A DNA stretch of 39,189 nucleotides from an uncultured Sphingomonas sp. (lineage in GTDB: Bacteria > Pseudomonadota > Alphaproteobacteria > Sphingomonadales > Sphingomonadaceae), in the NCBI GenBank assembly GCA_965727025.1, contig CBFRWL010000001.1:1-39189 (forward strand), given 5' to 3'. This document shows positions 1 through 39,189 of the stretch, piece after piece (positions within the stretch are counted from its first letter, which is position 1; each line of letters begins with the position of its first letter). The position numbers and the translations under genes were made by a program. The notes under the pieces are model-generated. The model ran no database searches, was not told where the DNA came from, and saw only the letters and a program-made list of their open reading frames with translations.

Positions 1-755
1 TTCTCAGCCGTATCCTCGGTCGTCTGGCTGATGTAGATCGCTCGGCTCTCCAGCTCGATGGCCGCTTCGAGGCTGCCGGCCGACTGGTTCAGCCAGAGCG
101 ACTGCTTGGTAAGCGCGATGCCGATCGGGCTGTTGGTCGCGATCGAGTCCGCGAGCGCCAGCGCCTCGGCCTGTAGTTCCTCATCCTCCACCACGCGCAG
201 GGCAAGGCCGATGCTGGCTGCCTCCTCGGCGAGAACCGGGCGGCCGGTCAGCAGCATCTCGGCGGCGCGTTGGGTGCCGACCGCGCGCGGCAGCAGGTAG
301 GAGAAGCCCATTTCGTGCCCGGTGCCCGCATTGTGGAAAGCGTTCACGAATTTCGCCGACTTCGCGACGAGACAAATGTCGGATGCAAGCGCCAGCAGAT
401 AGCCTAGCCCTGCGGCCGCCCCGTTCACCGCCGCGATCACAGGCTGCGGCAGGGAACGCATCGCGACGGGAAGCTGGCTCAGCTTGGCCATGATCGCCCG
501 GGTCTTCTGCGCACTACCAAGGTCGCCACGCACCCACGGCGCCTCGCTGGGCGAGCGGATATCGTGCCCGGCCGAGAAGGCGCGGCCCGCGCCCGTCAGG
601 ATCACCACCTGCGCCTCGGGATCGAATCGGATCTCCTCCAGCGCCTCCAGCAGCTCGGCATACATCGCGAAACTGAAGCTGTTCAGAGCGCCCGGCCGAT
701 TGAGCGTGATCCGCCGCACACCGGCCGCCGGCCGATCCAGCTCGATATCTGCCAT
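1..755 (-). CDS. enoyl-CoA hydratase/isomerase (crotonase family); C-terminal end runs off the left edge of the window
   Basis: Absent from the ORF track because no stop lies in the window. My reverse-strand translation from ATG 755-753 gives MADIELDRPAAGVRRITLNRPGALNSFSFAMYAELLEALEEIRFDPEAQVVILTGAGRAFSAGHDIR...PVIAAVNGAAAGLGYLLALASDI...TGRPVLAEEAASIGLA..., a typical crotonase pattern. The frame stays open to position 3. GGAGGA lies about 10 nt upstream. Confidence 0.8.
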   Translation of the reverse strand, partial: MADIELDRPAAGVRRITLNRPGALNSFSFAMYAELLEALEEIRFDPEAQVVILTGAGRAFSAGHDIRSPSEAPWVRGDLGSAQKTRAIMAKLSQLPVAMRSLPQPVIAAVNGAAAGLGYLLALASDICLVAKSAKFVNAFHNAGTGHEMGFSYLLPRAVGTQRAAEMLLTGRPVLAEEAASIGLALRVVEDEELQAEALALADSIATNSPIGIALTKQSLWLNQSAGSLEAAIELESRAIYISQTTEDTAE

Positions 756-1099
756 GATACTCGTATCCTCCCCTTCGTTAGTAACAGCTGGAGCAAAGCC
801 TGCAGGGCGGCAGCGTGATTGCGGACCGTCCTATGGTGTCAGGACCGACAGACATCCGCAACGGCGGCTGGTCGAGGTCCATCGCCGCGAGCACGACAGC
901 AGCCTCGCAATAGATTTCCAGGCCAGCTCCTGCCGCCGCCGGAGAGTTGGATGATCGCAGCTTCGGTCGCTACCCGGCCGATGCCGCCCGACACGCCTCA
1001 TGACGAACCCGTTTGCCATATGCCTCTTCCCCGCTCATTCGGTCATGAAAAGGCTCTGAAGACCGTGGCTTGGCAAGCGGACCTTTGCGCCACGGCAAT

Positions 1100-1141
1100 C
1101 CATCGCGATCGCGATCATTACCAGCGATCCCCTCGCGATGG
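1100..1141. repeat. 9-bp inverted repeat CCATCGCGA / TCGCGATGG with a 24-nt spacer, ~57 nt upstream of the ferredoxin start; candidate operator
   Basis: Arms at 1100-1108 and 1133-1141 are exact reverse complements. The repeat lies in the 442-bp divergent intergenic region. Function is unproven. Confidence 0.2.
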
Positions 1142-1197
1142 CCGTCGGAGGATGGCATCGAGCGATCACGCCACAAGCAATTATCAGGACAGGGAAT

Positions 1198-1518
1198 ATG
1201 GTGAAAGTCACTTTCGTCGAGCCGGATGGCTCAGAGCGCACGCTGGACGGGGATCAGGGTTTCTCTGTGATGGAGCTCGCGGTGCGCAACGGTGTGGCTG
1301 GCATCGCGGCCGATTGCGGCGGCGCCTGCGCGTGCGCCACCTGCCATGTCTATGTTGATCCCGCCTGGTTGGCTACGGTAGGCGCGCCCGGCGACATGGA
1401 AAGGGACATGCTGGAGTTCGCCAGCGAGCCGCGTGAGAATAGCCGTCTCTCATGCCAAATCCGGCTTACTGCCGCGCTCGACGGGCTCAAGGTTACGGTG
1501 TCGGATAGCCAGCACTGA
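1198..1518 (+). CDS. [2Fe-2S] ferredoxin, adrenodoxin/putidaredoxin type (P450 redox partner class)
   Basis: ORF 1138..1518 trimmed to the ATG at 1198 (MVKVTFVEPDGSERTLDG...). Cys ligand pattern DCGGACACATCH (C-x5-C-x2-C) plus the distal SRLSCQI, as in putidaredoxin. AGGACAGGGAA lies just upstream. Confidence 0.9.
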   Translation: MVKVTFVEPDGSERTLDGDQGFSVMELAVRNGVAGIAADCGGACACATCHVYVDPAWLATVGAPGDMERDMLEFASEPRENSRLSCQIRLTAALDGLKVTVSDSQH

Positions 1519-1556
1519 GCCCGGTTCAGCCAGCGGGATGCACCGAGAAGCCGTAA

Positions 1557-1574
1557 GGGCGGCTCGGGCCGCCC
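1557..1574. terminator. GC hairpin between convergent ferredoxin and GMC genes; possible bidirectional terminator
   Basis: GGGCGGC-tcgg-GCCGCCC gives a 7-bp stem and 4-nt loop between the stops at 1518 (+) and 1580 (-). There is no U-tract, so the call is weak. Confidence 0.3.
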
Positions 1575-1579
1575 ACCCA

Positions 1580-3229
1580 TCAATCCCGCGCGTCCGTCCG
1601 GATCATATCCGCGCCTTTTTCGGCGATCATGATGGTGGCGCCGTTGGTATTGCCCGAGACGACCCTCGGCATCACCGAGGCATCCACGACGCGCAGACCT
1701 TCCACTCCCTTCACGCGCAGCCGTTCGTCGACGACCGGGCCGATGGCGCAGGTGCTGGACTGGTGATAGCCGGTCGATCCGGCTGCGCGCGCGAAGGCCA
1801 GCAGCTCGTCGTCGCTTTCCACGTTCGCTCCCGGCGTCAGCTCTTGATCGATGAAGGGCGCCAGAGCCGGCTGCTCCATGACCCTCCGCGACCAGCGAAG
1901 CGCCGCGACCGTGCCGCGCTGGTCGGCAAGCTCGGCGATGAAATTGGGAATGATAGCAGGCTGGACGCGCGGATCGGCCGAGCGGATATGGATGGAGCCC
2001 ATCGAATGCGGCCGCATCACGTAACCGCCGATGGTGATCCCCGGTTCAGATTCCATCGTCATCCGCCCGGTTTTTACCAGCGCTTCGAAATCGACCGTGG
2101 CGGGACTGGCGAAGAATTGTAGATCGGGCATGTCCACCTCGGGACCTGAGCGCAGGTAAGCCGTCAGGTGCGAGCCGCCGAGCGCAAGCAGGCCGGTGCG
2201 CGTGAAGGTGTAACGGATCATCTGGCCGAGCAATGGCAGTCCTCGCGACAGCGCGTTCATGCTGAGCATCCCGGGCTTCAGCCTACTGCGCACCATGCTT
2301 GCATAATGGTCCTGCAGATTTTCGCCGACGCCCATATTCTCGGCGATCGTAGGGATGCCATGCGCGCGCAGCAGCTCGGGCTGGCCGACACCCGACAATT
2401 CGAGCAATTGCGGAGAATTGATCGCACCACCCGACAGGATCACCTCGCGTCGGGCACGCGCGATGTGGCGCTCCCCGCCACGCTCGAACTCAACCCCCAC
2501 CGCCTTCTTGCCCTCGAACAGGATCCGGGTAGCGAGCGAGCGCTTCTCCACTTTCAGGTTGGCGCGCTTCATCGCCGGATGCAGGTAGGCAACCGCCGTC
2601 GAGCGCCGAAGCCCACGCTTCTGGGTCAGGCGGATCATGCTGACGCCCTCGAAGGTGTTGCCATTGAGGTCCGCCGCATCGGGCGCGCCGGCCTCAAGGA
2701 AAGCCTTGCGAATATTCTCCGACATGGAATGTTTGACGGGCGTATCGCAGATGTCCAGTGGCCCGCCGAGCCCCGCGAAGGTGGCGTTCCGGCCCGCTTG
2801 GTTCTCCGCCCTGCGGAAGAAGGGCTCAACGTCGGCCCAAGACCAGCCAGCGGCCCCCAGCTGCCGCCAGCCATCATAATCCTGGGGCAGGCCACGCACA
2901 TAGATCATGCCGTTGATCGAGGAGGAACCACCCAGCACCTTGCCGCGCGGGAAGGCGAAGGTGCGCCCGTCGGTGGAGGGATTGGGCTCCGTCGTGTAGT
3001 TCCAGTTGATCTTCGGATCCTCGAGCATGCTCGTGAAGCCCGCCGGGATGTGGATGTTCAGGTTGCTGCGGAACTGGCCCAGCTCCTTGAACGGGCGATC
3101 GTCGCCGCCGGCTTCCAGCAGGATCACCTGTGTCTTTCCGTCCTCGGTCAGCCGGTTGGCCAGCACGCAGCCGGCGGAGCCCGCCCCGACGATGATGTAG
3201 TCCGCTTCCCCAGCGCTCGTCTGCACCAT
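1580..3229 (-). CDS. GMC-family FAD oxidoreductase (choline/alcohol dehydrogenase-like)
   Basis: 549-aa ORF. N-terminal [36 protein letters not shown] fold, [15 protein letters not shown], and C-terminal [11 protein letters not shown]...VVDASVMP...GNTNA-like GMC signatures. Confidence 0.9.
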
Positions 3230-3379: not shown

Positions 3380-5131
3380 ATGGCCGACTATGACATTGTG
3401 ATTAGAGGCGGTACGGTGGTGGACGGCACCGGTGGCGAGCCGTTCGTGGCGGACGTGGCCGTGAAGGACGGTCGCATCGCCGAGGTGGGCAAGGTGACCG
3501 GCAAGGGCGCCGAGGAGATCGATGCTGATGGCCGGATTGTGACGCCCGGCTTCGTCGACGTGCACACCCATTACGACGGCCAGATCACTTGGGAGCATCG
3601 GCTCGCGCCCTCGTCCGACCATGGCGTGACGACGGTGGTGATGGGCAATTGCGGCGTCGGCTTCGCACCGATCCGCAAGACCGACCATCAGATCGCGGTG
3701 AAACTGATGGAGGGCGTGGAGGACATCCCCGAGGTGGTGATGACCGCCGGTGTGCCGTGGAACTGGGAGACCTTCCCCGAATATCTCGACGCCATCGAGC
3801 AGCGCGAGAGCGACATCGATTTCTGTGCGCAGCTGCCGCACTCGCCGGTGCGCGTGTGGGTGATGGGTGAGCGCGGTGTGAACTTGGAGCCGCCGACCGA
3901 GCACGACCTTGCCGAGATGCGCCGCATCACCAAGGAAGCGATCGAGGCCGGCGCGCTTGGCGTCTCGACCTCGCGCAGCTTCGCGCACAAGTTCAAGGAC
4001 GGCCGCCCGGCGCCCTCCGTCCAGACCGAGGATCAGGAGGTGTTGGCGCTCGCCGCCGGCCTGAAGGACGCCCATGCCGGCGTTTTCCAGATGGTGCCGA
4101 GTTACGACGTGTCTCCGCGTGAGCGCTTCGATCTGCTGCGCGCCATCGCCAAGGAATCGGGCCGCCCGGTCTCCTTCACATTCATGCAGGCCCCGCACGA
4201 GCCGTCCAGCGCGTGGCAGGACACGCTGCGTGACCTCAACAAGGCCAAGGAGGACGGCCTGGAGATTCGCGGCCAAGTGATCCCGCGCCCGACCGGTGCG
4301 ATGCTGGGCCTCGAGCTTTCGCTCCATCCTTTCGCGCTCAATCCGAGCTTCCGCGAGATCGAAAACCTTCCGCTGGAACAGAAGGTCGCCCGGATGAAGG
4401 ATCCCGCCTTCCGCGAGAAAATGCTCGCGGAGGAGCCGCAGGATCCGTTCGACTTCTTCCTCTATGTGCTGTCCGATCTGGATCAGATGTACGTGCTCGG
4501 CGATCCCCCGAACTACAATCCATCGCAGTCGGAAAGCATCTGCGAGCTCGCCAAGGCCAAGGGCGTCTCGACCAAGGAGATGCTCTACGACGTGCTGCTC
4601 CAGCGCGACGGACACGAGGTGCTCTACCGGCCGCTCGGCAACGCAGAGGGCGAGAAGTTCGAGAGTTCGCGGTTCCTGCTCGGCCATGACCGCACCGTGG
4701 TGGCGCTGGGCGACGGCGGCGCGCATTATTCGATGATCTGCGATGCGGCCTATACCACCTATCTGCTGACCTACTGGGTCAAGAACCAGACGCCCGACAA
4801 GGCGGTGGCACTGCCGGCGGCGATTAAGATGCTGTCGCGCGATCCGGCTGAACTCGCCGGCCTGCGCGACCGCGGTCTGATCAAGCCGGGCTACAAGGCT
4901 GATCTCAACGTGATCGATATGGGCCGCCTGCACCTCTACGCGCCGCACGCTACGTACGATCTGCCCGCAGGCGGCCGCCGCCTGTCGCAAAAAGCGGATG
5001 GATACGAGGCGACCATCGTTTCGGGCGTGGTGACCTATCGTGAAGGCGTCTCCACCGGCGCGCTGCCGGGTCGCCTGCAGCGCTTCGCCCGCCCGGACCC
5101 GGCGCCGGCGAAGGAACTCGAAGCTGCCTGA
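3380..5131 (+). CDS. metal-dependent amidohydrolase, N-acyl-D-amino-acid deacylase (D-aminoacylase) family
   Basis: Track ORF 2168..5131 is an artificial upstream extension running antisense to the GMC gene. The real start is the ATG at 3380 (MADYDIVIRGGTVVDGTGGEPFVADVAVKDGRIAEVG), preceded by GAGGAGA. Motifs: GFVDVHTHYDGQ (HxH metal site) and VVMGNCGVGFAP. Product is 583 aa. Confidence 0.85.
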   Translation: MADYDIVIRGGTVVDGTGGEPFVADVAVKDGRIAEVGKVTGKGAEEIDADGRIVTPGFVDVHTHYDGQITWEHRLAPSSDHGVTTVVMGNCGVGFAPIRKTDHQIAVKLMEGVEDIPEVVMTAGVPWNWETFPEYLDAIEQRESDIDFCAQLPHSPVRVWVMGERGVNLEPPTEHDLAEMRRITKEAIEAGALGVSTSRSFAHKFKDGRPAPSVQTEDQEVLALAAGLKDAHAGVFQMVPSYDVSPRERFDLLRAIAKESGRPVSFTFMQAPHEPSSAWQDTLRDLNKAKEDGLEIRGQVIPRPTGAMLGLELSLHPFALNPSFREIENLPLEQKVARMKDPAFREKMLAEEPQDPFDFFLYVLSDLDQMYVLGDPPNYNPSQSESICELAKAKGVSTKEMLYDVLLQRDGHEVLYRPLGNAEGEKFESSRFLLGHDRTVVALGDGGAHYSMICDAAYTTYLLTYWVKNQTPDKAVALPAAIKMLSRDPAELAGLRDRGLIKPGYKADLNVIDMGRLHLYAPHATYDLPAGGRRLSQKADGYEATIVSGVVTYREGVSTGALPGRLQRFARPDPAPAKELEAA

Positions 5132-5206: not shown

Positions 5207-5992
5207 ATGGACATGTTCTCGCTTGCCGGGCGCACCGCGCTCGTCACCGGTGCTTCGCGCGGGCTGGGCCGCGCGATCGCGTTGGCCATGGCGGAGGCCG
5301 GCGCCCGCGTCGTGCTCGCCGCGCGCGATGAGGCGAAGCTCAACGAGGTCGCGGCGCTGATCGGCGACAAGGGCGGCGAGGCCGAGATCGTCACCTTCGA
5401 GCTGGGCGACCTGCCTGCCGTCGAGCGCGTGATCCCCGGCCTCACCGACCGCGGCCTCGCCATCGACATCCTCGTCAACAACGGCGCGATCGGCGGCTGG
5501 GGCGCGCTCCACGGATCGACGCTCGCCAAGTGGGAGCAGATGTTCGACGTCAACGTGTCGTCCATGTACATCCTCTGCCGAGACGCCTCAGTCGGCATGG
5601 TCGAGCGCGGTTGGGGCCGGATCATCAATTTCGGGTCTTACGTCTCCAAGACCGGTCGTCCCAACCTTTCCGCCTACGTCGCCAGCAAGACGGCGGTGCT
5701 GGGCCTCACCAAGGCGATCGCCGCCGATCTCGCACCGAGCGGCGTCACCGTGAACGCGATCGCACCCGGTTTCTTCGACACAGACATGGCGGCGCCGACC
5801 GTTGGCCATCCACAGCGCGCCAAGATCTTCAGGGATGCGATCGCGATGGGCCGCTTCGGCGATCCGGCGGAGATCACCGGGCCGGCGATCTTCCTCGCCT
5901 CAGAGGCCGCGCGCTACGTCACCGGACAGATGTTGCACGTCGACGGCGGCGTGAACGGCATGCTGTCGCTGCCCGTCGTCGTCGAAGAGTAA
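5207..5992 (+). CDS. short-chain dehydrogenase/reductase (classical SDR)
   Basis: TALVTGASRGLGRAIA Rossmann motif, LVNNGA, SAYVASKTAVLGLTK (YxxxK). I prefer the ATG at 5207 (GGAG 9 nt upstream) over the track start at 5189. Confidence 0.85.
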   Translation: MDMFSLAGRTALVTGASRGLGRAIALAMAEAGARVVLAARDEAKLNEVAALIGDKGGEAEIVTFELGDLPAVERVIPGLTDRGLAIDILVNNGAIGGWGALHGSTLAKWEQMFDVNVSSMYILCRDASVGMVERGWGRIINFGSYVSKTGRPNLSAYVASKTAVLGLTKAIAADLAPSGVTVNAIAPGFFDTDMAAPTVGHPQRAKIFRDAIAMGRFGDPAEITGPAIFLASEAARYVTGQMLHVDGGVNGMLSLPVVVEE

Positions 5993-8457: not shown

Positions 8458-8487
8458 CGGCGGCGACGCAGGAGGAGATTTGACGCA

Positions 8488-30107: not shown

Positions 30108-30111
30108 GCCG

Positions 30112-31590: not shown

Positions 31591-31607
31591 TTTCGGCCGC
31601 TGCGATC

Positions 31608-31621: not shown

Positions 31622-31690
31622 CAACTGTCGGTTCATCACCGTGCTCCGCCGGGATATGATCGCCGCCGGAAAAGTGATCAGGAGAGAGTG

Positions 31691-33102: not shown

Positions 33103-34233
33103 TCAGGCCGCCGCGACGAGGCCGCCCGCGTCCGCCAGCGCATCGACGTGATGATCGGCATCGCCGAACAGCGCATCGATTGCGGTCAGCCGCTTGAAGG
33201 CGTGACCGACCTTATATTCGGCGGTGATGCCGATCGCGCCGTGCATCTGCACCGCCTGCTGGCCGATGAAGCGGCCCGCGCGACCGATCTGCACCTTGGC
33301 GGCGGCAATGTTGCGGCGGCGCTCTTCAGGCTCTGCGGTCAACGAGAGCGCGGCGAGCGTCGCCATCGACCGCGACAGCTCCAGCTGGATCAGCATGTCC
33401 ACGGCGCGGTGCTGGAGCGCCTGGAAACTGCCGATCGAGACGCCAAACTGCTGGCGCGTCTTAAGATAGTCGGTGGTAAGGTCGAGCGTGTCGGCCATCG
33501 CCCCCACCGCCTCGGCGGCGAGCGCGGCATTGGCCGCCTCGAACAGAGCCGGCAGGATCGTCGCCCCCGCCCCCTCGGCCCCGAGCAGCGCGTCCACGTC
33601 GACCGTCACGCCATCGAAGGTGATGCTCGCCACCGGCACACCGTCATAGCCGCGCTGGCTCACACGCCGCACGCCGGACGCGTCTCCGGGAACGAGGAAC
33701 AGCGAGGTTCCGGCATCGGCGCGCGCGCTCACCACCAATTCGTCGGCCGAGGCGCCATGCAGCACCGCCACCTTGGCGCCGTCGATCCGCCAGCCGTCGC
33801 CGTCCCGGGTCGCCGTGGTGCGTGCCTCCAGCGTGTGGCGCAGCGCGCCCGGCTCGCTGTGCGCCAGCGCCATGATCCGCTCGCCGGTGACGATCGCCGG
33901 GATGCGCGCTTCCTTTTGCGCGGCCGATCCTGCGAGGCGCAACGCCCCGCCGGCGAGGATCACGGTCGACAGATAGGGCTCGACGACGAGGCCGCGCCCC
34001 AGCGCCTCCATTACCAGCATCGTCTCTACGCCGCCGGCGCCGAAGCCGCCATCCTCCTCCGAAAAGGGCATACCGAGCAGGCCGAGCTCGGCCATCTCGC
34101 CCCACACTGCGCGGCTCCAGCCCTCCGGCTCCTTCATGATCTTCAGCCGCTCCTCGAAGCCGTAGCGATCGGCGACGAAGCGGGTGACGCTGTCGGAGAG
34201 CAGGCGCTGCTCGTCGGTCAGGTCGAAATCCAT
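33103..34233 (-). CDS. acyl-CoA dehydrogenase family protein, beta-type partner (second pair)
   Basis: Track ORF 33103..34356 trimmed to the ATG at 34233 (MDFDLTDEQRLLSDSVTRFV...ELGLLGMPFSEEDGGFG...MHGAIGITAEY). That start is 7 nt after the upstream ACAD stop. Confidence 0.8.
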   Translation of the reverse strand: MDFDLTDEQRLLSDSVTRFVADRYGFEERLKIMKEPEGWSRAVWGEMAELGLLGMPFSEEDGGFGAGGVETMLVMEALGRGLVVEPYLSTVILAGGALRLAGSAAQKEARIPAIVTGERIMALAHSEPGALRHTLEARTTATRDGDGWRIDGAKVAVLHGASADELVVSARADAGTSLFLVPGDASGVRRVSQRGYDGVPVASITFDGVTVDVDALLGAEGAGATILPALFEAANAALAAEAVGAMADTLDLTTDYLKTRQQFGVSIGSFQALQHRAVDMLIQLELSRSMATLAALSLTAEPEERRRNIAAAKVQIGRAGRFIGQQAVQMHGAIGITAEYKVGHAFKRLTAIDALFGDADHHVDALADAGGLVAAA

Positions 34234-34240
34234 ATGATCC

Positions 34241-35428
34241 TCAGAGCCCCAGCACGCCCTTGGCGATGATGTTCTTCTGGATCTCGTTCGAGCCCCCGAA
34301 GATCGAAACCTTGCGCATCGTGAAGTAGAAGGGCGCGGCGGCCTCGATCCAGCCATGCTCGCCCGCTTCGTCGGCCCCGTTATGCTCCGGCATGGCGAGC
34401 CCCGCCGGACCGGCCAGCTCGACAGTCAACTCGGTCATGCGCTGCTGCAGCTCGGTGCCCTTGATCTTGAGGATCGAGGCCGCCGCATTGGCACCGCCGC
34501 CCTGCGCGTCCGCCGCGACGACGCGTAGCTGGGTCAGCTCCAGCGCACGCAGCTCCACCTCCACCTCGGCGAGCTTGCGGCGCAGGCGCCGCCGCTCGCC
34601 GTCGCTCAGCATGCCCTTGGCGGACATGTCCTCCTCCAGGTGGCGCAGCTGCGACAGCCGCTCCTTCGAAAGGCCGATCCGCGCGATGCCGGAACGCTCG
34701 TGGCCGAGCAGGTGCTTGGCGTAGTCCCAGCCCTTGCCTTCCTCGCCGATGCGGTTCTCGACCGGCACGCGGACATCGTCGAAGAACACTTCGTTCGCAT
34801 CGTGCTCCCCGTCGATCGTTTCGATCGGTCGGACGGTGAGGCCCGGCGTCTTCATATCAAGCAGCAGGAAGGTGATGCCCTGCTGCTTCTTGCCGCTGTT
34901 ATCGGTGCGGAACAGGCCGAACATCCAATCGGCATGCTGGGCCTGGGTGGTCCAGATCTTCTGGCCGTTGAGGACATAGTGGTCGCCGTCACGCACCGCC
35001 GTGGTCTTGAGGCTGGCGAGATCGGAGCCTGCACCGGGTTCGGAGAAGCCTTGGCACCACCAGTCGTCGATATTCGCGATGCGCGGCAGGAAGCGCGCTT
35101 TTTGCTCCTCGGTGCCGAACTTGCAGATCACCGGGCCGATCATGTTGACGTTGAAGGGCGATCCTTCAGGCGCATGGGCCAGCGCCATCTCTTCCTGGAA
35201 GATATAGCGTTGCGAAGGCGTCCAGCTCTGGCCGCCATAGGCGACCGGCCAGTTGGGTGTCGCCCACCCCTTGGCATTCAGTATCCGCTGCCAGCGGACG
35301 ATGTCATCCTTGCCGAGATGGCGGCGCTCGATCATCTTCCGGCGCAGATCGGCCGGGAGGGAGGTAGCGAGGAAATCACGGACTTCCTGGCGGAAGGCCT
35401 TTTCCTCGGGGTTGAAGGACAGGTCCAT
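34241..35428 (-). CDS. acyl-CoA dehydrogenase, alpha-type subunit (second FadE26/ChsE4-like copy)
   Basis: 395 aa; MDLSFNPEEKAFRQEVRDFL...WPVAYGG...WCQGFSEPGAGSDLASLKTTAVRDGDHYVLNGQKIWTTQAQHADW. Confidence 0.88.
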   Translation of the reverse strand: MDLSFNPEEKAFRQEVRDFLATSLPADLRRKMIERRHLGKDDIVRWQRILNAKGWATPNWPVAYGGQSWTPSQRYIFQEEMALAHAPEGSPFNVNMIGPVICKFGTEEQKARFLPRIANIDDWWCQGFSEPGAGSDLASLKTTAVRDGDHYVLNGQKIWTTQAQHADWMFGLFRTDNSGKKQQGITFLLLDMKTPGLTVRPIETIDGEHDANEVFFDDVRVPVENRIGEEGKGWDYAKHLLGHERSGIARIGLSKERLSQLRHLEEDMSAKGMLSDGERRRLRRKLAEVEVELRALELTQLRVVAADAQGGGANAAASILKIKGTELQQRMTELTVELAGPAGLAMPEHNGADEAGEHGWIEAAAPFYFTMRKVSIFGGSNEIQKNIIAKGVLGL

Positions 35429-35515
35429 GGAGCCTCGCGAGTGCGTGTCGTCCTGCTCTTCCGTGCGCTGGACCGAAGGTCAATCGACAACCCCATCTAC
35501 CGCATTTCCGATACA

Positions 35516-36457
35516 TCATCGCTGCAAATCGAGCAGGATGCGCCCGCGTCCAGCCTCCGCCGCCGCCAGCGCGTCGTCCAGTCGGGAGAGCGGCACGGTC
35601 TCCGCGACGGGCAGCGGGTGCGCCATCAGCAGCTCGGCCAGTTCGCCATAGAGGCGGCGCAGATCCGCGACCGAATCGCCGGCCTCGGCAGGGCGCAGGC
35701 TGAAGCCGCCGACGGTCAGCCCTCGGCCGGTGAGAAGCGTCGAGGGAATGCGGCATGCTTGTGCAGAGAGATGGCCGAATACGGTCACTCGCCCGTCCTC
35801 CGCAAGGCAGGCGGCGAGCCGACCCGTCGCTTCGCCCGCGACGCAATCGAGCGCGAGGCGGATCGGCCCTCCTCCGGCCGCGAGGTGAACGCGCCCGGCA
35901 AGGCCGGGGCCATCGGGAAGCAACGGCGCCGGCGCGTCGGCATGGCGGGAGACCGTCAGCACCTTGACGCCCCGCGACTCCGCGATCCGCTCGACGAGCA
36001 TCGCCACCGCCGAGCGGCCGCCATTCTGGATCACGACATCGCCAGCTTGCAGGGGCGTTGTGCCAAGCAAACGCCACGCCGTTGCCGGATTGATCCGTAG
36101 CATCGCGGCCTGTTCCAACGGCAGTGCAGCAGGCACGCGCAATACCGCATCAGCCGGCACCCGGCGCAGGCTAGCCCAGTTGCCGCGCGCGAGCGGGATC
36201 ACTTGGTCGCCCACTCTGAAATCTTCAACACCCGCACCGATCGCGATCACCTCGCCCACGCCTTCGGCCCCGACCACCACCACCTCATTCGGCTGGAAGC
36301 TGTAGCGTCCGGCGATTATCAGCCGGTCGGCCGGGTTGATCGGCGCCAAGCGCATTGCGACCAGCAGTTCGCCCGGCCCGGGAGAACCGGGATGCTCGGC
36401 GTCGATCAGGCGGACACCCTCCCCAGGCGCCAGCACTGCTTGGCAGCAAGTCTCCAT
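35516..36457 (-). CDS. medium-chain dehydrogenase/reductase of the 2-enoyl thioester reductase (MECR/Etr1) type
   Basis: Track ORF 35516..37054 trimmed to the ATG at 36457 (METCCQAVLAPGEG...). INPADRLIIAGRYSFQPNEVVVVGAEGVGEVIAIGAGVEDFRVGDQVIPLARGNW...LRINPATAWRLL is colinear with my recollection of MECR (INPSDINMIQGNYG...VGGNEGVAQVVAVG...GDWVIP...LGVNPCTAYRML). The RBS is weak, so the start is uncertain. Confidence 0.75.
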   Translation of the reverse strand: METCCQAVLAPGEGVRLIDAEHPGSPGPGELLVAMRLAPINPADRLIIAGRYSFQPNEVVVVGAEGVGEVIAIGAGVEDFRVGDQVIPLARGNWASLRRVPADAVLRVPAALPLEQAAMLRINPATAWRLLGTTPLQAGDVVIQNGGRSAVAMLVERIAESRGVKVLTVSRHADAPAPLLPDGPGLAGRVHLAAGGGPIRLALDCVAGEATGRLAACLAEDGRVTVFGHLSAQACRIPSTLLTGRGLTVGGFSLRPAEAGDSVADLRRLYGELAELLMAHPLPVAETVPLSRLDDALAAAEAGRGRILLDLQR

Positions 36458-36532: not shown

Positions 36533-37303
36533 ATGGATCTTGGGATCAAGGACAAGGTAGCGGTCGTCGCCGGCGGCACGCGCGGTTGCGGACTCGGCAT
36601 CGCACAGGCGCTGGCCGCGGAGGGTGCGCGCGTGCTCGTCAGCGGTCGCGATCAGGCAAATGCCGACGAGGCGGTCGCCGCGATCGAGGCAGCGGGCGGC
36701 AAGGCCGCCGGTGTCGCCGCCGACATGGCGACCGATGACGGCGCCGAGCGCATCGTTCGGGCGGCGCGAGATGCCTTCGGGGCGCCTTCGATTTTGGTGG
36801 TGAACCCACGCCCCGCCTCGCTCTCGCGCGGGTTCGAGCAGGTGACCGATGCCGATTTCGAGGATGCCAACCAGACTTGGGTGATGAGCCTCGTCCGTCT
36901 CGCGCGGCGCGTGCTGCCGGATATGCAGGCAGCCGGCTGGGGGCGCATCCTCTACATGGGTTCGATCGGCATGAAGGTGCTGCACCTCGACGATCCGATG
37001 TACGCGCAGAACGTCCGCGTCGCGGCCGCCGGCGTGGTGAAGACGCTGTCCCACGAATATGGGCGATACGGCATCACCGCCAACACCATCGCCACCGGTC
37101 CGTTCATGACCGGGCTGACCAAGGATTACATCGAGGGTGGCGGGCTCGCCGAGACCACGATGCTGTCGATGACGGCGAGCGGCCGCTGGGGCACGCCGGC
37201 GGAGATGGGCGCGGTCGCGGCGTTCCTCTGCTCGGCTCCGGCGAGCTTCGTGACGGGAGAGACGATCCGGGTCGATTCAGGCTATACGCACAGCCTGTTC
37301 TGA
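36533..37303 (+). CDS. SDR with an atypical active-site segment
   Basis: KVAVVAGGTRGCGLGIAQALA, MGSIG. The expected YxxxK reads MYAQNVRVAAAGVVK, with no Lys at +4 and Arg at +5. AAAAGGAGAG RBS. Confidence 0.8.
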   Translation: MDLGIKDKVAVVAGGTRGCGLGIAQALAAEGARVLVSGRDQANADEAVAAIEAAGGKAAGVAADMATDDGAERIVRAARDAFGAPSILVVNPRPASLSRGFEQVTDADFEDANQTWVMSLVRLARRVLPDMQAAGWGRILYMGSIGMKVLHLDDPMYAQNVRVAAAGVVKTLSHEYGRYGITANTIATGPFMTGLTKDYIEGGGLAETTMLSMTASGRWGTPAEMGAVAAFLCSAPASFVTGETIRVDSGYTHSLF

Positions 37304-37330
37304 GCGGCTGCGGCGCCCCTGCCCGCTCAG
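37300..37330. terminator. hairpin spanning both stop codons of the convergent SDR genes; possible bidirectional terminator
   Basis: CTGAGCGG (37300-37307) and CCGCTCAG (37323-37330) are exact reverse complements with a 15-nt GC-rich loop. No U-tract. Confidence 0.3.
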
Positions 37331-38229
37331 GGCAGAAAGCGCTTGCGGATGTCGCCGACGAGATTGTCGAGGGTGTGCGGGTCCTCGAGCGCTTCCAGCG
37401 TCCAGCCGCCAGGCTTGAACGCCATACGGATCAGCTCCGGATCGGCGTGGCGCGCGATCTCGTCGCCCGCGACATAGAAATCCTGGCTGGTCACGTGCGC
37501 GGTGGACGGCAGGCAGAGCAGGGTCGCCAGCGCCGCAACATGTTCGGGCAGCGCCGTGATGCGCGGCTGGCCGAGGTGGCGGTTACCCATCAGGGGAATG
37601 TCGAACTCGGCCGCAATGTCTATCGTCTCTTGGATCTCGGGGGTGAAGGTGCCGGTGATGTGGCTGATCGGGCGGATCAAGTTGCAGCGCACGCCGTAGC
37701 GCCCGAGATCACGGGCAACGGCGCGGGTCAGGCCGAGCGCGCCTTCCTTGGCGGCCGAGTAATTTGCCATGCTGTTGTGGCCGAGGCCGGAAGTCGAGCC
37801 GGTGTTGACGATCACGCCGCCGTCACCCTGCGCAATGAAATGCGGCGCAGCAAAGCGGATCGTTGCCGCATAGGCCTTGAGGCTGATGTTGACAACGGCG
37901 TCCCAAGTCTCCTCGTCCATCCTGTCGATACGCGCGGGGCGGACGATGCCGGCATTGTTGATGAGAATGTCGATGCGGCCGAACGCATCGATCGCGGTCT
38001 TGACGATCGCCTCGCCGCCCGCCCAGCTCGACGCGCTGTGGCTGTCCGCCACCGCATCGCCGCCGGCGTCGCGTATCTCCTTCACCACATCCTCGGCGCC
38101 GCCCACATCGTTGACGACGATCTTCGCGCCTTCGCGCATCAGCGACAGCGCCTCGGCACGGCCGATGTTGCGGCCGGCGCCGGTCACGATCGCCACCTTG
38201 CCGGCCAGTCGACTACCCTGCTGCGTCAT
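37327..38229 (-). CDS. SDR, MFE-2/Hsd4A-like subtype with a C-terminal extension
   Basis: GKVAIVTGAGRNIGRAEALSLMREGAKIVVNDVGG, ILINNAG, ANYSAAKEGALG. I prefer the ATG at 38229 (GGAGA 6 nt upstream). ATGs at 38241 and 38310 are alternatives, but the 38310 extension runs through a strong hairpin. Confidence 0.85.
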   Translation of the reverse strand: MTQQGSRLAGKVAIVTGAGRNIGRAEALSLMREGAKIVVNDVGGAEDVVKEIRDAGGDAVADSHSASSWAGGEAIVKTAIDAFGRIDILINNAGIVRPARIDRMDEETWDAVVNISLKAYAATIRFAAPHFIAQGDGGVIVNTGSTSGLGHNSMANYSAAKEGALGLTRAVARDLGRYGVRCNLIRPISHITGTFTPEIQETIDIAAEFDIPLMGNRHLGQPRITALPEHVAALATLLCLPSTAHVTSQDFYVAGDEIARHADPELIRMAFKPGGWTLEALEDPHTLDNLVGDIRKRFLP

Positions 38230-38267
38230 TCTCGTCTCCATGGAATTGCCCGGCATGCCTGAATGCC

Positions 38268-38300
38268 AAGGGGCGCCGGCATCAAGTCCGGCGCCCCCTT
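38268..38300 (-). terminator. strong GC hairpin downstream of the IclR gene; candidate intrinsic terminator
   Basis: AAGGGGCGCCGG-catcaagt-CCGGCGCCCCCTT forms a 10-12-bp stem with one bulged C. It begins 28 nt past the IclR stop on the minus strand. Only a short TT follows. Confidence 0.45.
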
Positions 38301-38327
38301 GATCGGACATGCGATCAACGCATTTCG

Positions 38328-39161
38328 TCAGGCGTAGGCGATGCCTTCGTGATCGCGCGTGATCGAAAACGCGCCACGCGGCAGCATATGATCGTCGTTG
38401 CTGGCGCGATGGAACGGTGCAAGGGGCTGTCCAATATGCGCCTCGTCGATCATCGCGCGGATTTCGTCCACATGATCGACGATCGCGGTGCTCTTGCCGA
38501 TGACGCTTAGCACGATGCGCTGGCCACCCGGTCGTGGTGGCAGCATGACGGCCAGGGTCGCGAGCCCCTCGGCCACGGCAATGTCCCAGCCTTTGGCGCG
38601 CAATAGGCGCAGGCTATCGATTTCCTCGTTCACCGAAACGCGACGCTCGGGATCCGCCTCGTCCGCGTTGAGGCGGCGGAGCGCGGAGCGGATATGCAAG
38701 TCCTGATAGGTCGACAGCAGGAGCCGGCCGGCGACGTCGTGCAGCAACGGCGCGGTGTCCCCAACGTGCAGATGCGGCGCCTCGGGGGCGGCGCCAGGCA
38801 CGACATGGATATGTTGGAGGCGATAATGAGCAGCGACCGAAAGCATCACAGTCTGGCCGAATTGTTGGGCGATGTTGTCGACCATCGGCAGCAACGCGCC
38901 GTCACGAAACAGGTCCGGCTCCACCCAGGCGCCGATCAGCGCCACGCGGGCGGTCGGCCGATAGTTCCGGGTATAGCGGTTGTAGTGGAGATAGCCGAGC
39001 GCCACGAGACAGCGGAGCAGTTCGGAAGTGCTCGACTGCGGATAGCCGAGCGAGCGGGCGATATCCATCACGGTCGCCGTCGTATGTTCCTGATCGAAGA
39101 ATTCCAGCACTTCGAGCACCCGCCGTGCGGACTTGATCATCTTGGTGTCGATAGCACCCAT
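38328..39161 (-). CDS. IclR-family transcriptional regulator
   Basis: 277 aa. N-terminal wHTH SARRVLEVLEFFDQEHTTATVMDIARSLGYPQSSTSELLRCLVALGYL followed by an effector-binding domain. GGAGAG RBS. Confidence 0.9.
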   Translation of the reverse strand: MGAIDTKMIKSARRVLEVLEFFDQEHTTATVMDIARSLGYPQSSTSELLRCLVALGYLHYNRYTRNYRPTARVALIGAWVEPDLFRDGALLPMVDNIAQQFGQTVMLSVAAHYRLQHIHVVPGAAPEAPHLHVGDTAPLLHDVAGRLLLSTYQDLHIRSALRRLNADEADPERRVSVNEEIDSLRLLRAKGWDIAVAEGLATLAVMLPPRPGGQRIVLSVIGKSTAIVDHVDEIRAMIDEAHIGQPLAPFHRASNDDHMLPRGAFSITRDHEGIAYA

Positions 39162-39189
39162 CAGCGTCTCTCCAGCTTGGCTCGCTCCA

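What the first reader, a model, noticed from the sequence alone, without database searches (positions are those of the whole stretch)
1..39189. Oxygenase-heavy steroid/bile-salt-type catabolic supercluster with no visible thiolase, aldolase or reductase partners
One window holds many enzyme families established in bacterial steroid and bile-salt degradation. These are a KstD-family flavoprotein, a 3alpha-HSD-like SDR, two FadE26/27 (ChsE4/5)-type ACAD pairs plus a third ACAD, MFE-2/Hsd4A-type SDRs, a CoA ligase, crotonases, a FadB-like enzyme and P450s. It also carries an unusually large oxygenase set: two Rieske alpha subunits, three P450s, a TauD-type and a PhyH-type 2OG oxygenase, a VOC protein and a GMC oxidase. 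Several things I would expect for canonical side-chain shortening or oxygenase function are absent. There is no thiolase, no Ltp2-type aldolase, no MaoC-type hydratase pair, no ferredoxin reductase or Rieske reductase, and no TonB receptor or transporter. From memory, a distinct, incompletely characterised side-chain degradation route has been proposed for bile-salt-degrading Sphingomonadaceae, involving a heteromeric ACAD, a Rieske monooxygenase and an amidase-type enzyme. This window has that flavour. It could represent such a route, or a related route for a cyclic terpenoid acid.
Basis: inference. Interest (0 to 1): 0.65.

Follow-up and report, generated by a model that had tools for sequence, protein, structure and literature searches.

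The report
Soil bacterium's ring-compound degradation island
This 39-kb contig from an uncultured soil and root-zone bacterium is the middle of a gene island of at least 55 kb that probably breaks down a steroid-like or terpenoid ring compound as CoA esters; most of its "missing" partner enzymes sit just outside the contig or in close relatives, so it is an interesting but not exotic uncharacterised catabolic cluster.

Summary
The gene inventory is largely right. There are 34 genes: a KstD-family flavoprotein, two Rieske alpha subunits, three P450s, TauD- and PhyH-type oxygenases, five ACADs (two heteromeric-type pairs), crotonases, a FadB-like enzyme, MFE-2-type SDRs and a CoA ligase. No thiolase, aldolase, MaoC hydratase, reductase or transporter lies inside the window.

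The window is a whole contig that ends inside a crotonase gene. In one near-identical contig an intact thiolase follows at once; other strains carry a 1.16-kb deletion of it. Relatives also carry a Rieske reductase and TonB receptors. A 2Fe-2S ferredoxin is present in the window.

The CoA-ligase "frameshift" is a poly-G assembly artefact.

The Rieske proteins are CntA/GbcA-like and alpha-only, not KshA-like. Two of the P450s are CYP101-like. The core (ACAD–Rieske–KstD-like, FadB, PimCD-like ACADs) is conserved in Sphingobium, Rhizorhabdus, Sphingomonas and Nitrospirillum. More distant versions occur in plant-associated Paraburkholderia and Azospirillum.

Best reading: CoA-dependent catabolism of an alicyclic isoprenoid, steroid or terpenoid acid, with the substrate unresolved. 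Orthology to the Chol11 bile-salt side-chain cluster could not be tested. Interest is moderate.

The parts
1..755 (-). Crotonase ECHa (267 aa in relatives). Its 3' end, about 49 nt, is cut by the contig end.
   Evidence: Pfam ECH_1, 169 bits. Full gene seen in L058, L059 and L060.
1198..1518 (+). 2Fe-2S ferredoxin, 106 aa, vertebrate/ISC (putidaredoxin/Arx) class. Likely redox partner of the P450s and/or the Rieske oxygenases.
   Evidence: Pfam Fer2. NCBIfam fdx_isc, 47 bits. The exact protein occurs on 56 contigs.
1580..3229 (-). GMC oxidoreductase, choline-dehydrogenase-like. Probably an alcohol dehydrogenase.
   Evidence: Pfam GMC_oxred_N and GMC_oxred_C. NCBIfam PRK02106, 548 bits against a cutoff of 605.
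3380..5131 (+). Metal-dependent amidohydrolase, D-aminoacylase-like, 583 aa.
   Evidence: Pfam Amidohydro_3, 157 bits. PDB D-aminoacylase 1m7j, 110 bits. Gene call from L054 and L058.
5207..5992 (+). SDR1, classical short-chain dehydrogenase.
   Evidence: Pfam adh_short_C2, 193 bits. Generic in NCBIfam.
6098..7582 (+). Aldehyde dehydrogenase.
   Evidence: Pfam Aldedh, 491 bits.
7582..9447 (+). SDR2 (7582-8457) and SDR3 (8488-9447), PRK07791-type SDRs related to SDR7.
   Evidence: They are 36-39% identical to each other and to SDR7.
9630..12093 (-). P450a (9630-10859) and P450b (10873-12093), 74% identical paralogues. P450a is CYP101-family-like by PDB search; P450b is inferred from paralogy.
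   Evidence: For P450a: PDB P450cam 308 bits, CYP101D1/D2/J2 about 300 bits. Paralogy.
12104..13512 (-). SDR4 (12104-12874) and a conserved 213-aa divergent SDR-like protein with no significant family hit (12871-13512).
   Evidence: Conserved in L006, L007 and L056.
13648..15352 (+). Acyl-CoA ligase, 521 aa once repaired. It is interrupted in this contig by a 139-bp poly-G assembly artefact (14688-14826).
   Evidence: Contigs from three DNA runs skip 14647 to 14787. FadD3 family 590 bits against a cutoff of 657; CasG 266 against 750.
15349..16113 (+). SDR5. It is 254 aa in the 85% relative. There is no ATG, GTG or TTG before 15565 here, although the Rossmann motif is intact.
16208..17164 (+). 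TauD/TfdA-family Fe(II)/2OG oxygenase.
   Evidence: Pfam TauD, 170 bits. NCBIfam TauD 122 bits against a cutoff of 313; PtlD-like 102 bits.
17185..18652 (-). VOC/Glyoxalase_4 protein (17185-17670) and PhyH-family 2OG oxygenase (17678-18652).
   Evidence: PhyH's best NCBIfam hit is PtlH-like, 80 bits.
18782..22546 (-). Operon Rieske1 (21224-22546), then ACAD1L (19926-21125), then ACAD1S (18782-19906). This is an alpha-only Rieske monooxygenase plus a heteromeric-type ACAD pair.
   Evidence: ACAD1L's best PDB hit is ChsE4-ChsE5, 4x28, 139 bits. PimC and PimD score 366 and 278 bits. The same trio occurs in Steroidobacteraceae MAGs L027 and L030.
22773..26944 (-). Conserved triad: ACAD3 (25781-26944), then Rieske2 (24432-25757), then the KstD-like flavoprotein (22773-24428). 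Rieske2 and the KstD-like gene are 3 bp apart.
   Evidence: NCBIfam KstD model NF009478, 823 bits against a cutoff of 789. PDB AcmB 332 bits and KstD1 273 bits, with Y119, Y318, Y487 and G491 conserved. Triad synteny.
27135..31065 (+). FadB-like hydratase/dehydrogenase (27135-29246), crotonase ECHb (29271-30107) and a 3-hydroxyacyl-CoA dehydrogenase (30112-31065).
   Evidence: ECHb is 87-95% identical to Sphingobium orthologues.
31072..32986 (+). MarR regulator (31072-31590) and P450c (31691-32986), which is CYP107/PikC-like.
33103..36457 (-). PimCD-like ACAD pair, ACAD2L (34241-35428) and ACAD2S (33103-34233), plus an MDR-type dehydrogenase/reductase (35516-36457).
   Evidence: PimC 543 bits against 624 and PimD 437 bits against 653. 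MDR. ACAD2L is 80-85% identical in sphingomonads.
36533..38229 (.). SDR6 (36533-37303, + strand) and SDR7 (37327-38229, - strand). SDR7 is MFE-2-type.
   Evidence: SDR7's best PDB hit is 2et6, (3R)-hydroxyacyl-CoA dehydrogenase, 223 bits, followed by HSD17B4.
38328..39161 (-). IclR-family regulator.
   Evidence: Pfam HTH_IclR. It sits at the end of the conserved core in Nitrospirillum and Sphingobium.

Best explanation
The window is a complete metagenomic contig from an uncultured soil and rhizosphere alphaproteobacterium whose closest named relatives are Sphingomonadaceae. It forms the centre of a catabolic island of at least 55 kb, built from three modules that occur separately in other genomes.

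The island most likely degrades a hydrophobic alicyclic isoprenoid that has a ring ketone and a carboxylic side chain, either original or made by oxidation. The substrate would be a steroid-like or terpenoid acid, handled as CoA thioesters.

Inferred flow:
1. CYP101-like P450s, fed by the 2Fe-2S ferredoxin, and the 2OG oxygenases hydroxylate the skeleton. The GMC dehydrogenase and the aldehyde dehydrogenase carry a hydroxymethyl group to a carboxylate. The amidohydrolase may remove an amide-linked conjugate.
2. The FadD3-like ligase makes the CoA ester.
3. Two heteromeric-type ACAD pairs, ACAD3, the crotonases, the FadB-like enzyme, the MFE-2-type SDRs, the 3-hydroxyacyl-CoA dehydrogenase and the thiolase found just outside the contig run beta-oxidation-type shortening.
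4. The KstD-like flavoprotein desaturates next to a ring ketone. Its translationally coupled alpha-only Rieske monooxygenase hydroxylates the ring. This pairing is analogous to KstD with KshA, but the Rieske lineage is different.

Shown: gene families, synteny, catalytic residues, flanking genes and the assembly artefact. Inferred: the order of steps and the substrate class. The substrate itself is unknown.
For: - Family assignments for all 34 genes.
- The KstD-like enzyme passes NF009478 (823 bits against a cutoff of 789) and keeps Y119, Y318, Y487 and G491 of KstD1.
- ACAD1L's best PDB hit is ChsE4-ChsE5. SDR7's best PDB hit is MFE-2.
- P450a is CYP101-like, and the ferredoxin is of the class I P450 partner type.
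- Both Rieske proteins have intact Rieske and Fe motifs.
- The ACAD3-Rieske-KstD-like triad, with gaps of 30 bp or less, occurs in 12 of 15 genome loci whose Rieske is at least 53% identical. It also occurs in Nitrospirillum and Paraburkholderia sprentiae. It occurs in none of 26 loci with more distant Rieske proteins.
- The flanks extend the island. On the left are a thiolase (intact or deleted depending on strain), an OYE, a SnoaL_4 protein, SDRs, a crotonase, a second PhyH and a CmcJ/NvfI oxygenase. On the right are an IclR regulator, an Amidohydro_2 protein, a P450, a TetR regulator and a CMD protein.
- Related clusters add a ferredoxin reductase or FNR-type reductase, ETF, TonB receptors, MFS or MMPL transporters and thiolases.
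- The sequence recurs in soil, rhizosphere and plant metagenomes. Sparse fragments appear in rhizosphere metatranscriptomes.
Against: - No substrate, expression or mutant data exist for this cluster or its close relatives, and I found no paper describing it.
- Every family involved is promiscuous.
- The PimCD-like ACADs and the FadB-like enzyme also fit plain dicarboxylate or fatty-acid beta-oxidation.
- The three modules occur apart in other genomes, so the island may serve several substrates rather than one pathway.
- No reductase or transporter was seen within about 55 kb in this organism.
- The metatranscriptome signal is weak and could include DNA.
Confidence: 0.55

Rival explanations
1. 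It is specifically a bile-salt or steroid degradation cluster that uses the sphingomonad side-chain route known from Chol11 cluster 2 and C. tardaugens bsd I. In that route a Rieske monooxygenase, a heteromeric ACAD, an amidohydrolase and a CoA ligase replace aldolase or thiolase chemistry.
For: - Same architecture: a Rieske1-ACAD-ACAD operon, an amidohydrolase and a ligase, compared with PMC12882949 and 10.1101/2021.05.19.444901.
- The KstD model is passed.
- MFE-2-type SDRs are present.
- The left flank has an OYE, a SnoaL_4 protein, SDRs and a crotonase, resembling the Sor1, Hsh, SteA and SteB families.
- A TauD-like gene might handle released taurine.
- The reductase is also missing in Chol11 (10.1101/2021.06.24.449856).
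Against: - Nov2c228 is described as a KshA homologue, but the window's Rieske proteins hit no KshA structure at E<=1e-5 and carry PF00848.
- The ligase scores only 266 of 750 on the steroid-24-oyl-CoA synthetase model.
- A thiolase lies next door in some strains.
- No 9,10-seco genes appear in about 55 kb.
- The core occurs in Sphingobium, and a more distant version in Azospirillum. Neither genus is listed among predicted 9,10-seco steroid degraders (PMC4810484).
- Two of the P450s are CYP101-like, not CYP125- or CYP142-like.
- Orthology could not be tested because no Chol11 or C. tardaugens sequences were reachable.
Confidence: 0.2
2. It is a pim-type beta-oxidation system for medium-chain (di)carboxylic or branched fatty acids and alkyl chains. 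A P450, a GMC alcohol dehydrogenase, an aldehyde dehydrogenase and a ligase would form an alkane or alkyl terminal-oxidation front end. The KstD-like and Rieske genes would be unrelated passengers.
For: - ACAD2L and ACAD2S score 543 and 437 bits on the PimC and PimD models.
- The FadB-like enzyme resembles PimF.
- The GMC, aldehyde dehydrogenase and ligase trio resembles AlkJ, AlkH and AlkK.
- A thiolase is adjacent.
Against: - The PimC and PimD scores are below the curated cutoffs.
- The KstD-like and Rieske genes are translationally coupled and embedded between ACAD3 and the ACAD1 pair, conserved over many genomes.
- Eight SDRs, at least four 2OG-type oxygenases once the flank is counted, and CYP101-like rather than CYP153-like P450s argue for a cyclic, multiply oxidised substrate.
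Confidence: 0.12
3. It is a quaternary-amine (carnitine, betaine or choline) catabolic cluster.
For: - The best named Rieske hits are GbcA and CntA.
- The GMC enzyme is choline-dehydrogenase-like, 548 bits.
- The 3-hydroxyacyl-CoA dehydrogenase is L-carnitine-dehydrogenase-like, 298 bits.
- The aldehyde dehydrogenase is BADH-like, 394 bits.
Against: - All these scores are far below the curated cutoffs: GbcA 124 against 670, BADH 394 against 669, carnitine dehydrogenase 298 against 414.
- The Rieske matches cover only the N-terminal Rieske domain.
- Five ACADs, a KstD-like enzyme, three P450s and eight SDRs have no role in such pathways.
Confidence: 0.03

Closest known systems
Sphingobium sp. 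Chol11 cluster 2 and Caenibius tardaugens bsd I (bile-salt side-chain degradation; Feller et al. 2021; PMC12882949)
   Same: Both have a monooxygenase gene directly followed by two ACAD subunit genes, together with an amidohydrolase or amidase and an acyl-CoA ligase. Neither has a MaoC/aldolase set in the cluster core or a dedicated Rieske reductase.
   Different: The Rieske proteins here are PF00848, CntA/GbcA-like, with no detectable KshA similarity. The ligase is not CasG- or SclA-like by HMM. A thiolase is adjacent in some strains. This island is much larger and adds CYP101-like P450s, 2OG oxygenases and a KstD-like/Rieske pair. Orthology is untested.
KstD + KshAB ring-B opening system of steroid degraders (Rhodococcus, Mycobacterium, Pseudomonas)
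   Same: A KstD-family flavoprotein with all four catalytic residues is encoded next to a Rieske non-haem iron monooxygenase. By analogy, it would desaturate beside a ring ketone and the oxygenase would add a hydroxyl.
   Different: The Rieske partner belongs to a different lineage: Ring_hydroxyl_A C-domain and a Glu at the bridging position. No KshB was found. The pair sits in an operon with an ACAD, which suggests CoA-ester substrates. The hosts include genera not predicted to degrade steroids.
ChsE4-ChsE5 (FadE26-FadE27) and PimCD heteromeric acyl-CoA dehydrogenases
   Same: Two adjacent paralogous ACAD genes, large and small, occur twice in the window. ChsE4-ChsE5 is ACAD1L's best PDB hit, and PimC/PimD are the best NCBIfam models for both pairs.
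   Different: Identity to either family is only moderate, and the PimC/PimD scores are below the curated cutoffs. Subunit asymmetry, meaning loss of the catalytic base or of FAD binding in one subunit, was not checked.
CYP101-family P450 systems of Novosphingobium and Pseudomonas (P450cam, CYP101B1/C1/D1/D2 with Arx or putidaredoxin)
   Same: P450a scores about 300 bits to P450cam and CYP101D. P450b is its 74%-identical paralogue. A putidaredoxin-class 2Fe-2S ferredoxin is encoded 8 kb away.
   Different: No ferredoxin reductase lies in the island. The substrates are unknown. The P450s are embedded in a CoA-dependent degradation cluster rather than a camphor-type operon.
Uncharacterised clusters on Paraburkholderia sprentiae WSM5005 pl1 and Azospirillum sp. 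B510 pAB510b
   Same: They share a Rieske protein (48-52% identical) with a KstD-like enzyme (47-52%), an ACAD pair (55% and 41%), a ligase, crotonases, SDRs, an NTF2 protein, an OYE, a P450, a GMC enzyme and a 2Fe-2S ferredoxin. Both hosts are plant-associated.
   Different: Those clusters also carry TPP-dependent E1/E2 components, ETF, a ferredoxin reductase and DUF1302/DUF1329/MMPL uptake genes, all absent here. Their function is unknown too.

Membership tests
Chol11 cluster 2 / C. tardaugens bsd I type bile-salt side-chain cluster | Heteromeric ACAD (Scd4AB) genes adjacent to a Rieske monooxygenase gene | tested here: inconclusive
   The architecture is present: Rieske1-ACAD1L-ACAD1S at 18782-22546. 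Orthology to Nov2c221, Nov2c222 and Nov2c228 could not be tested because no sequences were reachable.
Chol11 cluster 2 / C. tardaugens bsd I type bile-salt side-chain cluster | The Rieske monooxygenase is a KshA homologue (27-32% identity to KshA; Feller et al.) | tested here: not met
   No KshA structure appears among PDB hits at E<=1e-5. The hits are phthalate dioxygenase and CntA, over the N-terminal domain only. The Pfam C-domain is Ring_hydroxyl_A.
Chol11 cluster 2 / C. tardaugens bsd I type bile-salt side-chain cluster | [quoted passage not shown] | tested here: not met
   The full-length ligase scores 266 bits against a cutoff of 750 on NF052580. Its best hit is the FadD3 family, 590 bits against 657.
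Chol11 cluster 2 / C. tardaugens bsd I type bile-salt side-chain cluster | Conserved amidase or amidohydrolase in the cluster | tested here: inconclusive
   A D-aminoacylase-like Amidohydro_3 protein is present. The family of Nov2c229 and EGO55_16305 is not stated precisely in the papers read.
Chol11 cluster 2 / C. tardaugens bsd I type bile-salt side-chain cluster | No thiolase or aldolase available for side-chain cleavage | tested here: not met
   An intact 411-aa thiolase lies between the OYE gene and ECHa in L060, which is 99% identical to the window. The 86% relative has a 398-aa thiolase there. Other strains carry a 1,156-bp deletion.
Chol11 cluster 2 / C. tardaugens bsd I type bile-salt side-chain cluster | Induced by side-chain-bearing bile salts, in a host with the 9,10-seco pathway and Hsh2 | not testable with these tools
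3-ketosteroid Δ1-dehydrogenase (KstD) family | FAD_binding_2 fold and a score above the curated KstD model cutoff | tested here: met
   PF00890, 232 bits. NF009478, 823 bits against a cutoff of 789. PDB AcmB 7p18, 332 bits, and KstD1 4c3x, 273 bits.
3-ketosteroid Δ1-dehydrogenase (KstD) family | Catalytic Tyr119, Tyr318, Tyr487 and Gly491 (KstD1 numbering, recalled from Rohman et al. 2013) | tested here: met
   All four are conserved in the alignment to 4c3x, allowing for the 20-residue tag offset.
3-ketosteroid Δ1-dehydrogenase (KstD) family | Activity on 3-ketosteroids | not testable with these tools
   An enzyme assay is needed. Related family members act on non-steroid cyclohexanones, for example the ChcC1 and ChcC2 models, which scored 260-281 bits.
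KshA-type steroid 9α-hydroxylase | Rieske [2Fe-2S] centre and mononuclear Fe ligands | tested here: met
   CPH...CKFH at residues 83-105, and E196x3E200x2H203x4H208.
KshA-type steroid 9α-hydroxylase | KshA-like catalytic domain and a KshB reductase partner | tested here: not met
   No KshA hit was found. No reductase lies in the window or its flanks.
CntA/GbcA-type alpha-only Rieske monooxygenases | No beta subunit, and Glu at the bridging position (recalled for CntA) | tested here: met
   There is no beta-subunit gene. E200 sits at the bridging position. CntA and GbcA are among the best named hits.
CntA/GbcA-type alpha-only Rieske monooxygenases | Score above the equivalog cutoff (true GbcA or CntA function) | tested here: not met
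   GbcA scores 124 and 110 bits against a cutoff of 670, over the N-terminal half only.
Heteromeric α2β2 ACADs (ChsE4-ChsE5 / PimCD) | Adjacent large and small paralogous ACAD genes whose best hits are known heteromeric ACADs | tested here: met
   4x28_A is ACAD1L's best PDB hit. PimC and PimD are the best NCBIfam models for both pairs. Within pair 1, ACAD1L and ACAD1S are 23% identical.
Heteromeric α2β2 ACADs (ChsE4-ChsE5 / PimCD) | PimC/PimD equivalog cutoffs, and one subunit lacking the catalytic base or FAD site | tested here: not met
   Scores of 543 against 624 and 437 against 653 (pair 2), and 366 and 278 (pair 1), are all below the cutoffs. Subunit asymmetry was not examined.

The most novel reading that the evidence does not exclude
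The translationally coupled ACAD-Rieske-KstD-like triad is conserved from sphingomonads and Nitrospirillum. The Rieske-KstD-like pair also recurs in a root-nodule Paraburkholderia. The triad may be a previously unrecognised ring-opening device. In it a KstD-type desaturase works with a CntA-like, alpha-only Rieske monooxygenase, probably on CoA-bound alicyclic ketones. It would be a functional analogue of KstD/KshA that evolved from a different oxygenase lineage. It might be used by plant-associated bacteria to consume a plant terpenoid, phytosteroid or hormone-like compound.
Probability: 0.25. Interest if true: 0.7.

Novelty: new variant of a known kind. Interest (0 to 1): 0.4.

Why it matters
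If the triad and its island turn out to degrade a plant terpenoid, phytosteroid or hormone-like compound, they would define a widespread rhizosphere catabolic trait. They would also define a second, independently evolved partner for KstD-type enzymes. If instead the island is a bile-salt or steroid cluster, it would give a thiolase-polymorphic natural population in which to test whether the sphingomonad side-chain route really bypasses thiolysis.

In either case the main practical result is cautionary. The striking "absences" came from a contig break at a strain-variable thiolase gene, and the one apparent pseudogene is a poly-G assembly artefact.

Tried and rejected
1. Near-identity search of the whole window against PLSDB plasmids gave only short fragments.
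2. Exact look-ups of the GMC and SDR1 proteins with my own start codons failed. Using the gene-caller lengths, the 106-aa ferredoxin worked.
3. A tomatine or tomatidine link through Sphingobium TomTYG strains was not supported. The TomTYG65 hit is only an amidohydrolase in another context. The TomTYG73 cluster is 30-44% related. The mBio paper names no matching genes.
4. The Novosphingobium PP1Y megaplasmid region shows no synteny.
6. I looked for a remnant of the extra TauD gene, present in the 85% relative, in the 226-bp gap at 22547-22772. None was found.
7. Literature searches for the Rieske/KstD/ACAD combination, for abscisic acid and for CYP101 clusters found no description.
8. The betaine or carnitine reading was rejected on cutoffs.
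9. Structure prediction and fold search were not run. Sequence evidence already separated the Rieske proteins from KshA.

Full report
**Gene map.** The DNA is about 65% G+C, so I called genes by third-position G+C. I refined starts with gene calls from near-identical public contigs. Thirty-four genes tile the window with no gap above about 370 bp, and there are no tRNA genes.

- A KstD-family flavoprotein, 22773-24428.
- Two Rieske alpha subunits, 70% identical to each other.
- Three P450s.
- TauD- and PhyH-type 2OG oxygenases.
- A small VOC protein and a GMC oxidoreductase.
- Two adjacent large/small ACAD pairs plus a fifth ACAD.
- A FadB-like fusion enzyme and two crotonases.
- A CoA ligase and eight SDRs.

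- A 106-aa 2Fe-2S ferredoxin.
- A D-aminoacylase-like amidohydrolase.
- An aldehyde dehydrogenase.
- An MDR dehydrogenase.
- A stand-alone 3-hydroxyacyl-CoA dehydrogenase.
- MarR and IclR regulators.

No thiolase, MaoC, SCP2/DUF35, reductase or transporter domain occurs in the window.

**Artefact.** The CoA ligase appears split over two reading frames. Comparison with a 98-99% identical contig (L006) and an 85% relative (L007) shows that the window carries 139 extra bases. These are about 100 bp of poly-G-rich junk plus a 41-bp direct repeat at 14647-14687 and 14787-14827. Contigs from three independent DNA runs skip exactly 14647 to 14787. In every run tested, the stretch attracts thousands-fold poly-G depth. 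The gene is intact in nature, 521 aa, so this is an assembly artefact and not a pseudogene.

**Contig ends and flanks.** Exact look-ups list 39,189 bp as the longest contig carrying the window's IclR and KstD-like proteins. The window is therefore a whole contig. Its left end cuts crotonase ECHa 49 nt before the stop codon.

Five contigs that are 98.5-99.4% identical to the window continue leftward: L058, from NCBI MAG GCA_966418375.1, and L059, L061, L062 and L063. They continue with:
- an OYE flavoprotein;
- a SnoaL_4 protein;
- SDRs and a crotonase;
- a second PhyH-type oxygenase;
- a CmcJ/NvfI-family oxygenase.

L060, which is 98.98% identical, has an intact 411-aa thiolase between the OYE gene and ECHa. 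This thiolase passes NF004853, 652 bits against a cutoff of 551. The other five contigs carry a 1,156-bp deletion that leaves only the thiolase C-terminal remnant...ETMCVGGDQGAAAIFERV*. An 86%-identical relative (L056, L057) has a VOC gene and a 398-aa thiolase at the same place. The assembly probably broke here because of this strain polymorphism.

To the right, L001 adds a second IclR regulator, an Amidohydro_2 protein, a fourth P450, a TetR regulator and a CMD protein. The island therefore spans at least 55 kb.

It is partly met: the thiolase is there in some strains, though it is transcribed separately from its neighbours.

**Origin.** No close match exists in plasmids. The best named relatives are:
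- a Sphingomicrobium MAG, GMC 82% identical;
- Sphingobium, Rhizorhabdus, Sphingomonas, Nitrospirillum and Phenylobacterium, with Rieske proteins 64-72% identical.

The sequence recurs in soil, rhizosphere and plant metagenomes. Three rhizosphere metatranscriptomes give sparse, low-depth fragments over many of the genes. This is weak evidence of expression.

**Modular structure.** A tblastn of the window's proteins against 44 genome loci shows three modules.

*Module A, the conserved core.*
- Gene order: [IclR]-MDR-ACAD2L-ACAD2S-(PhyH-like)-HCDH-ECHb-FadB, divergent from ACAD3-Rieske2-KstD-like.
- Hosts: Sphingobium jiangsuense, S. faniae, S. chlorophenolicum, S. fuliginis, Sphingobium sp. R-21, Rhizorhabdus histidinilytica, Sphingomonas zeicaulis and Sphingomonas sp. 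Y57. It also occurs in Nitrospirillum, at lower identity there (for example ECHb 68%, FadB 63%, KstD-like 69%).
- Identity to the sphingomonad orthologues: ECHb 87-95%, ACAD3 83-89%, ACAD2L 80-85%, KstD-like 76-80%.
- The KstD-like gene starts within 30 bp of the Rieske stop in 12 of 15 loci whose Rieske is at least 53% identical. The same holds in Nitrospirillum and in Paraburkholderia sprentiae. It holds in none of 26 loci with more distant Rieske proteins.

*Module B.* This is P450a/b-Rieske1-ACAD1L-ACAD1S with the GMC enzyme and the ligase. It recurs at 45-52% identity in Steroidobacteraceae MAGs. There an FNR-type reductase sits directly upstream of the Rieske gene.

*Module C.* This is ferredoxin-amidohydrolase and Rieske-TauD-VOC-PhyH. 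It recurs in a Sphingobium MAG (L020).

More distant versions of the whole ensemble lie on plasmids of two plant-associated bacteria, Paraburkholderia sprentiae WSM5005 and Azospirillum sp. B510. Those versions add ETF, a ferredoxin reductase, TPP-dependent E1/E2 components and DUF1302/DUF1329/MMPL uptake genes.

Relatives also carry TonB receptors, MFS or EamA transporters and thiolases next to the core. The "missing partners" are therefore a feature of this contig and lineage, not of the pathway type.

**Individual enzymes.**
- *KstD-like.* It passes NCBIfam's KstD model (823 bits against a cutoff of 789). Its best PDB hits are AcmB and KstD1. It conserves Tyr119, Tyr318, Tyr487 and Gly491 of KstD1 (residue roles recalled from Rohman et al. 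2013). It should desaturate next to a ring ketone. Related models for 4-oxocyclohexanecarboxylate dehydrogenases also score 260-281 bits, so a steroid is not required.
- *Rieske proteins.* Both have intact Rieske and iron motifs, with Glu at the bridging position. Their catalytic domain is Ring_hydroxyl_A. Their best named hits are GbcA, CntA and phthalate dioxygenase, over the N-terminal domain only. No KshA structure is hit at E<=1e-5.
- *P450s.* P450a is CYP101-like, with about 300 bits to P450cam and CYP101D/J. P450b is its 74%-identical paralogue. The ferredoxin is of the matching class. P450c is generic.
- *ACADs.* ACAD1L's best PDB hit is ChsE4-ChsE5. Both pairs score best on PimC and PimD, below the cutoffs.
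- *SDR7.* It is MFE-2-type.
- *Ligase.* It is FadD3-family-like, 590 bits against a cutoff of 657. It scores only 266 of 750 on the steroid-24-oyl-CoA synthetase model.
- *TauD, PhyH and the flank PhyH.* All three match pentalenolactone tailoring oxygenases best, and weakly.

**Comparison with the literature.** Feller et al. describe Chol11 cluster 2 as holding the SclA ligase, the Scd4AB ACAD, the Rieske protein Nov2c228 and amidases. It has no thiolase, aldolase or dedicated reductase. In C. tardaugens bsd I the order is TetR, amidohydrolase, monooxygenase-Scd4B-Scd4A, SclA, MaoC and an alpha/beta hydrolase.

The window's Rieske1-ACAD1L-ACAD1S operon, together with an amidohydrolase and a ligase, has the same architecture. 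Three points count against equating the two:
- Nov2c228 is described as a KshA homologue, which these Rieske proteins are not.
- The ligase is not of the steroid-24-oyl type.
- A thiolase is adjacent in some strains.

I could not reach any Chol11 or C. tardaugens sequence, so orthology is untested. Bergstrand et al. do not list Sphingobium or Azospirillum among predicted 9,10-seco steroid degraders. This suggests the core is not tied to the canonical steroid nucleus pathway. I found no paper describing this triad or island.

**Conclusion.**
- Best explanation (confidence 0.55): a modular, CoA-dependent catabolic island for an alicyclic isoprenoid with a ring ketone, either a steroid or a terpenoid acid.
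- Inferred sequence of steps: oxidation of a methyl or hydroxyl group to a carboxylate; CoA activation; beta-oxidation-type shortening that includes thiolysis; and ring attack by the KstD-like/Rieske pair.
- The specific bile-salt reading stays possible (0.2). Pim-type fatty or dicarboxylic acid oxidation (0.12) and quaternary-amine catabolism (0.03) are less likely.
- The most novel element is the conserved ACAD-Rieske-KstD-like triad, which uses a non-KshA Rieske lineage.

Noticed in passing
window 14647-14827: A 139-bp insert, made of poly-G-rich junk plus a 41-bp direct repeat, splits the CoA ligase gene. It is absent from near-identical contigs and from contigs of three DNA runs. It is an assembly artefact, probably derived from poly-G reads.
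   Followed up: yes
just left of window position 1; L060 4151-5386 versus L058 8550-8755: There is a strain polymorphism. An intact 411-aa thiolase gene is present in one 99%-identical contig. Five others carry a 1,156-bp deletion that leaves only the C-terminal remnant. The window's contig ends next to this variable site.
   Followed up: yes
window 15349-15565: SDR5 has no ATG, GTG or TTG upstream of 15565, although the conserved N-terminal TGAASGIG Rossmann motif is encoded in frame. The 85% relative starts with ATG. The gene may use a non-canonical start or translational coupling to the ligase gene.
   Followed up: partly
window 22547-22772 versus L007 9102-10004: The 85% relative (and L008) has an extra 300-aa TauD-family gene between the KstD-like gene and Rieske1. 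The window has a 226-bp unrelated spacer there, with no remnant of that gene.
   Followed up: yes
window 29271-30107 (ECHb): Crotonase ECHb is 87-95% identical to Sphingobium and Rhizorhabdus orthologues, while neighbouring genes are 60-85% identical. The conservation is unusually strong and could hint at recent exchange.
   Followed up: no
window 21224-22546 and 24432-25757 (residue 200 of each Rieske protein): Both Rieske proteins have Glu instead of the usual Asp at the position bridging the Rieske cluster and the catalytic iron (E196x3E200x2H203x4H208). As I recall, the same is true of carnitine monooxygenase CntA.
   Followed up: partly
L064 18049-21177; L065 16603-18888; L066 13374-15158; L070 7700-9728: Homologues of the window's Rieske gene in Paraburkholderia sprentiae, Azospirillum B510 and Sphingobium RAC03 sit directly next to thiamine-diphosphate-dependent enzymes (E1 alpha/beta with E2, or a ThDP-binding protein). 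In Sphingobium TomTYG73 the ThDP enzymes lie about 5 kb from the Rieske homologue. This hints at hydroxylation followed by ThDP-dependent C-C cleavage. No such gene lies in the window.
   Followed up: no
L010 15722-16936; L069 15911-17119 and 21238-21677: Sphingomonad versions of the core are flanked by an ecdysteroid-kinase-like (EcKL/APH) kinase and a sulfotransferase. This suggests the substrate or its products may be conjugated.
   Followed up: no
window 12871-13512: A conserved 213-aa protein has no significant family hit, only a weak match to the C-terminal part of SDRs. It always sits between the ligase gene and SDR4. A 34% homologue is annotated as an SDR in Azospirillum B510.
   Followed up: partly
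L001 13275-14753: In one metagenome contig the 3-hydroxyacyl-CoA dehydrogenase and MarR genes are called as a single 492-aa fusion product. This is probably a stop-codon or frameshift variant, or an assembly error.
   Followed up: no
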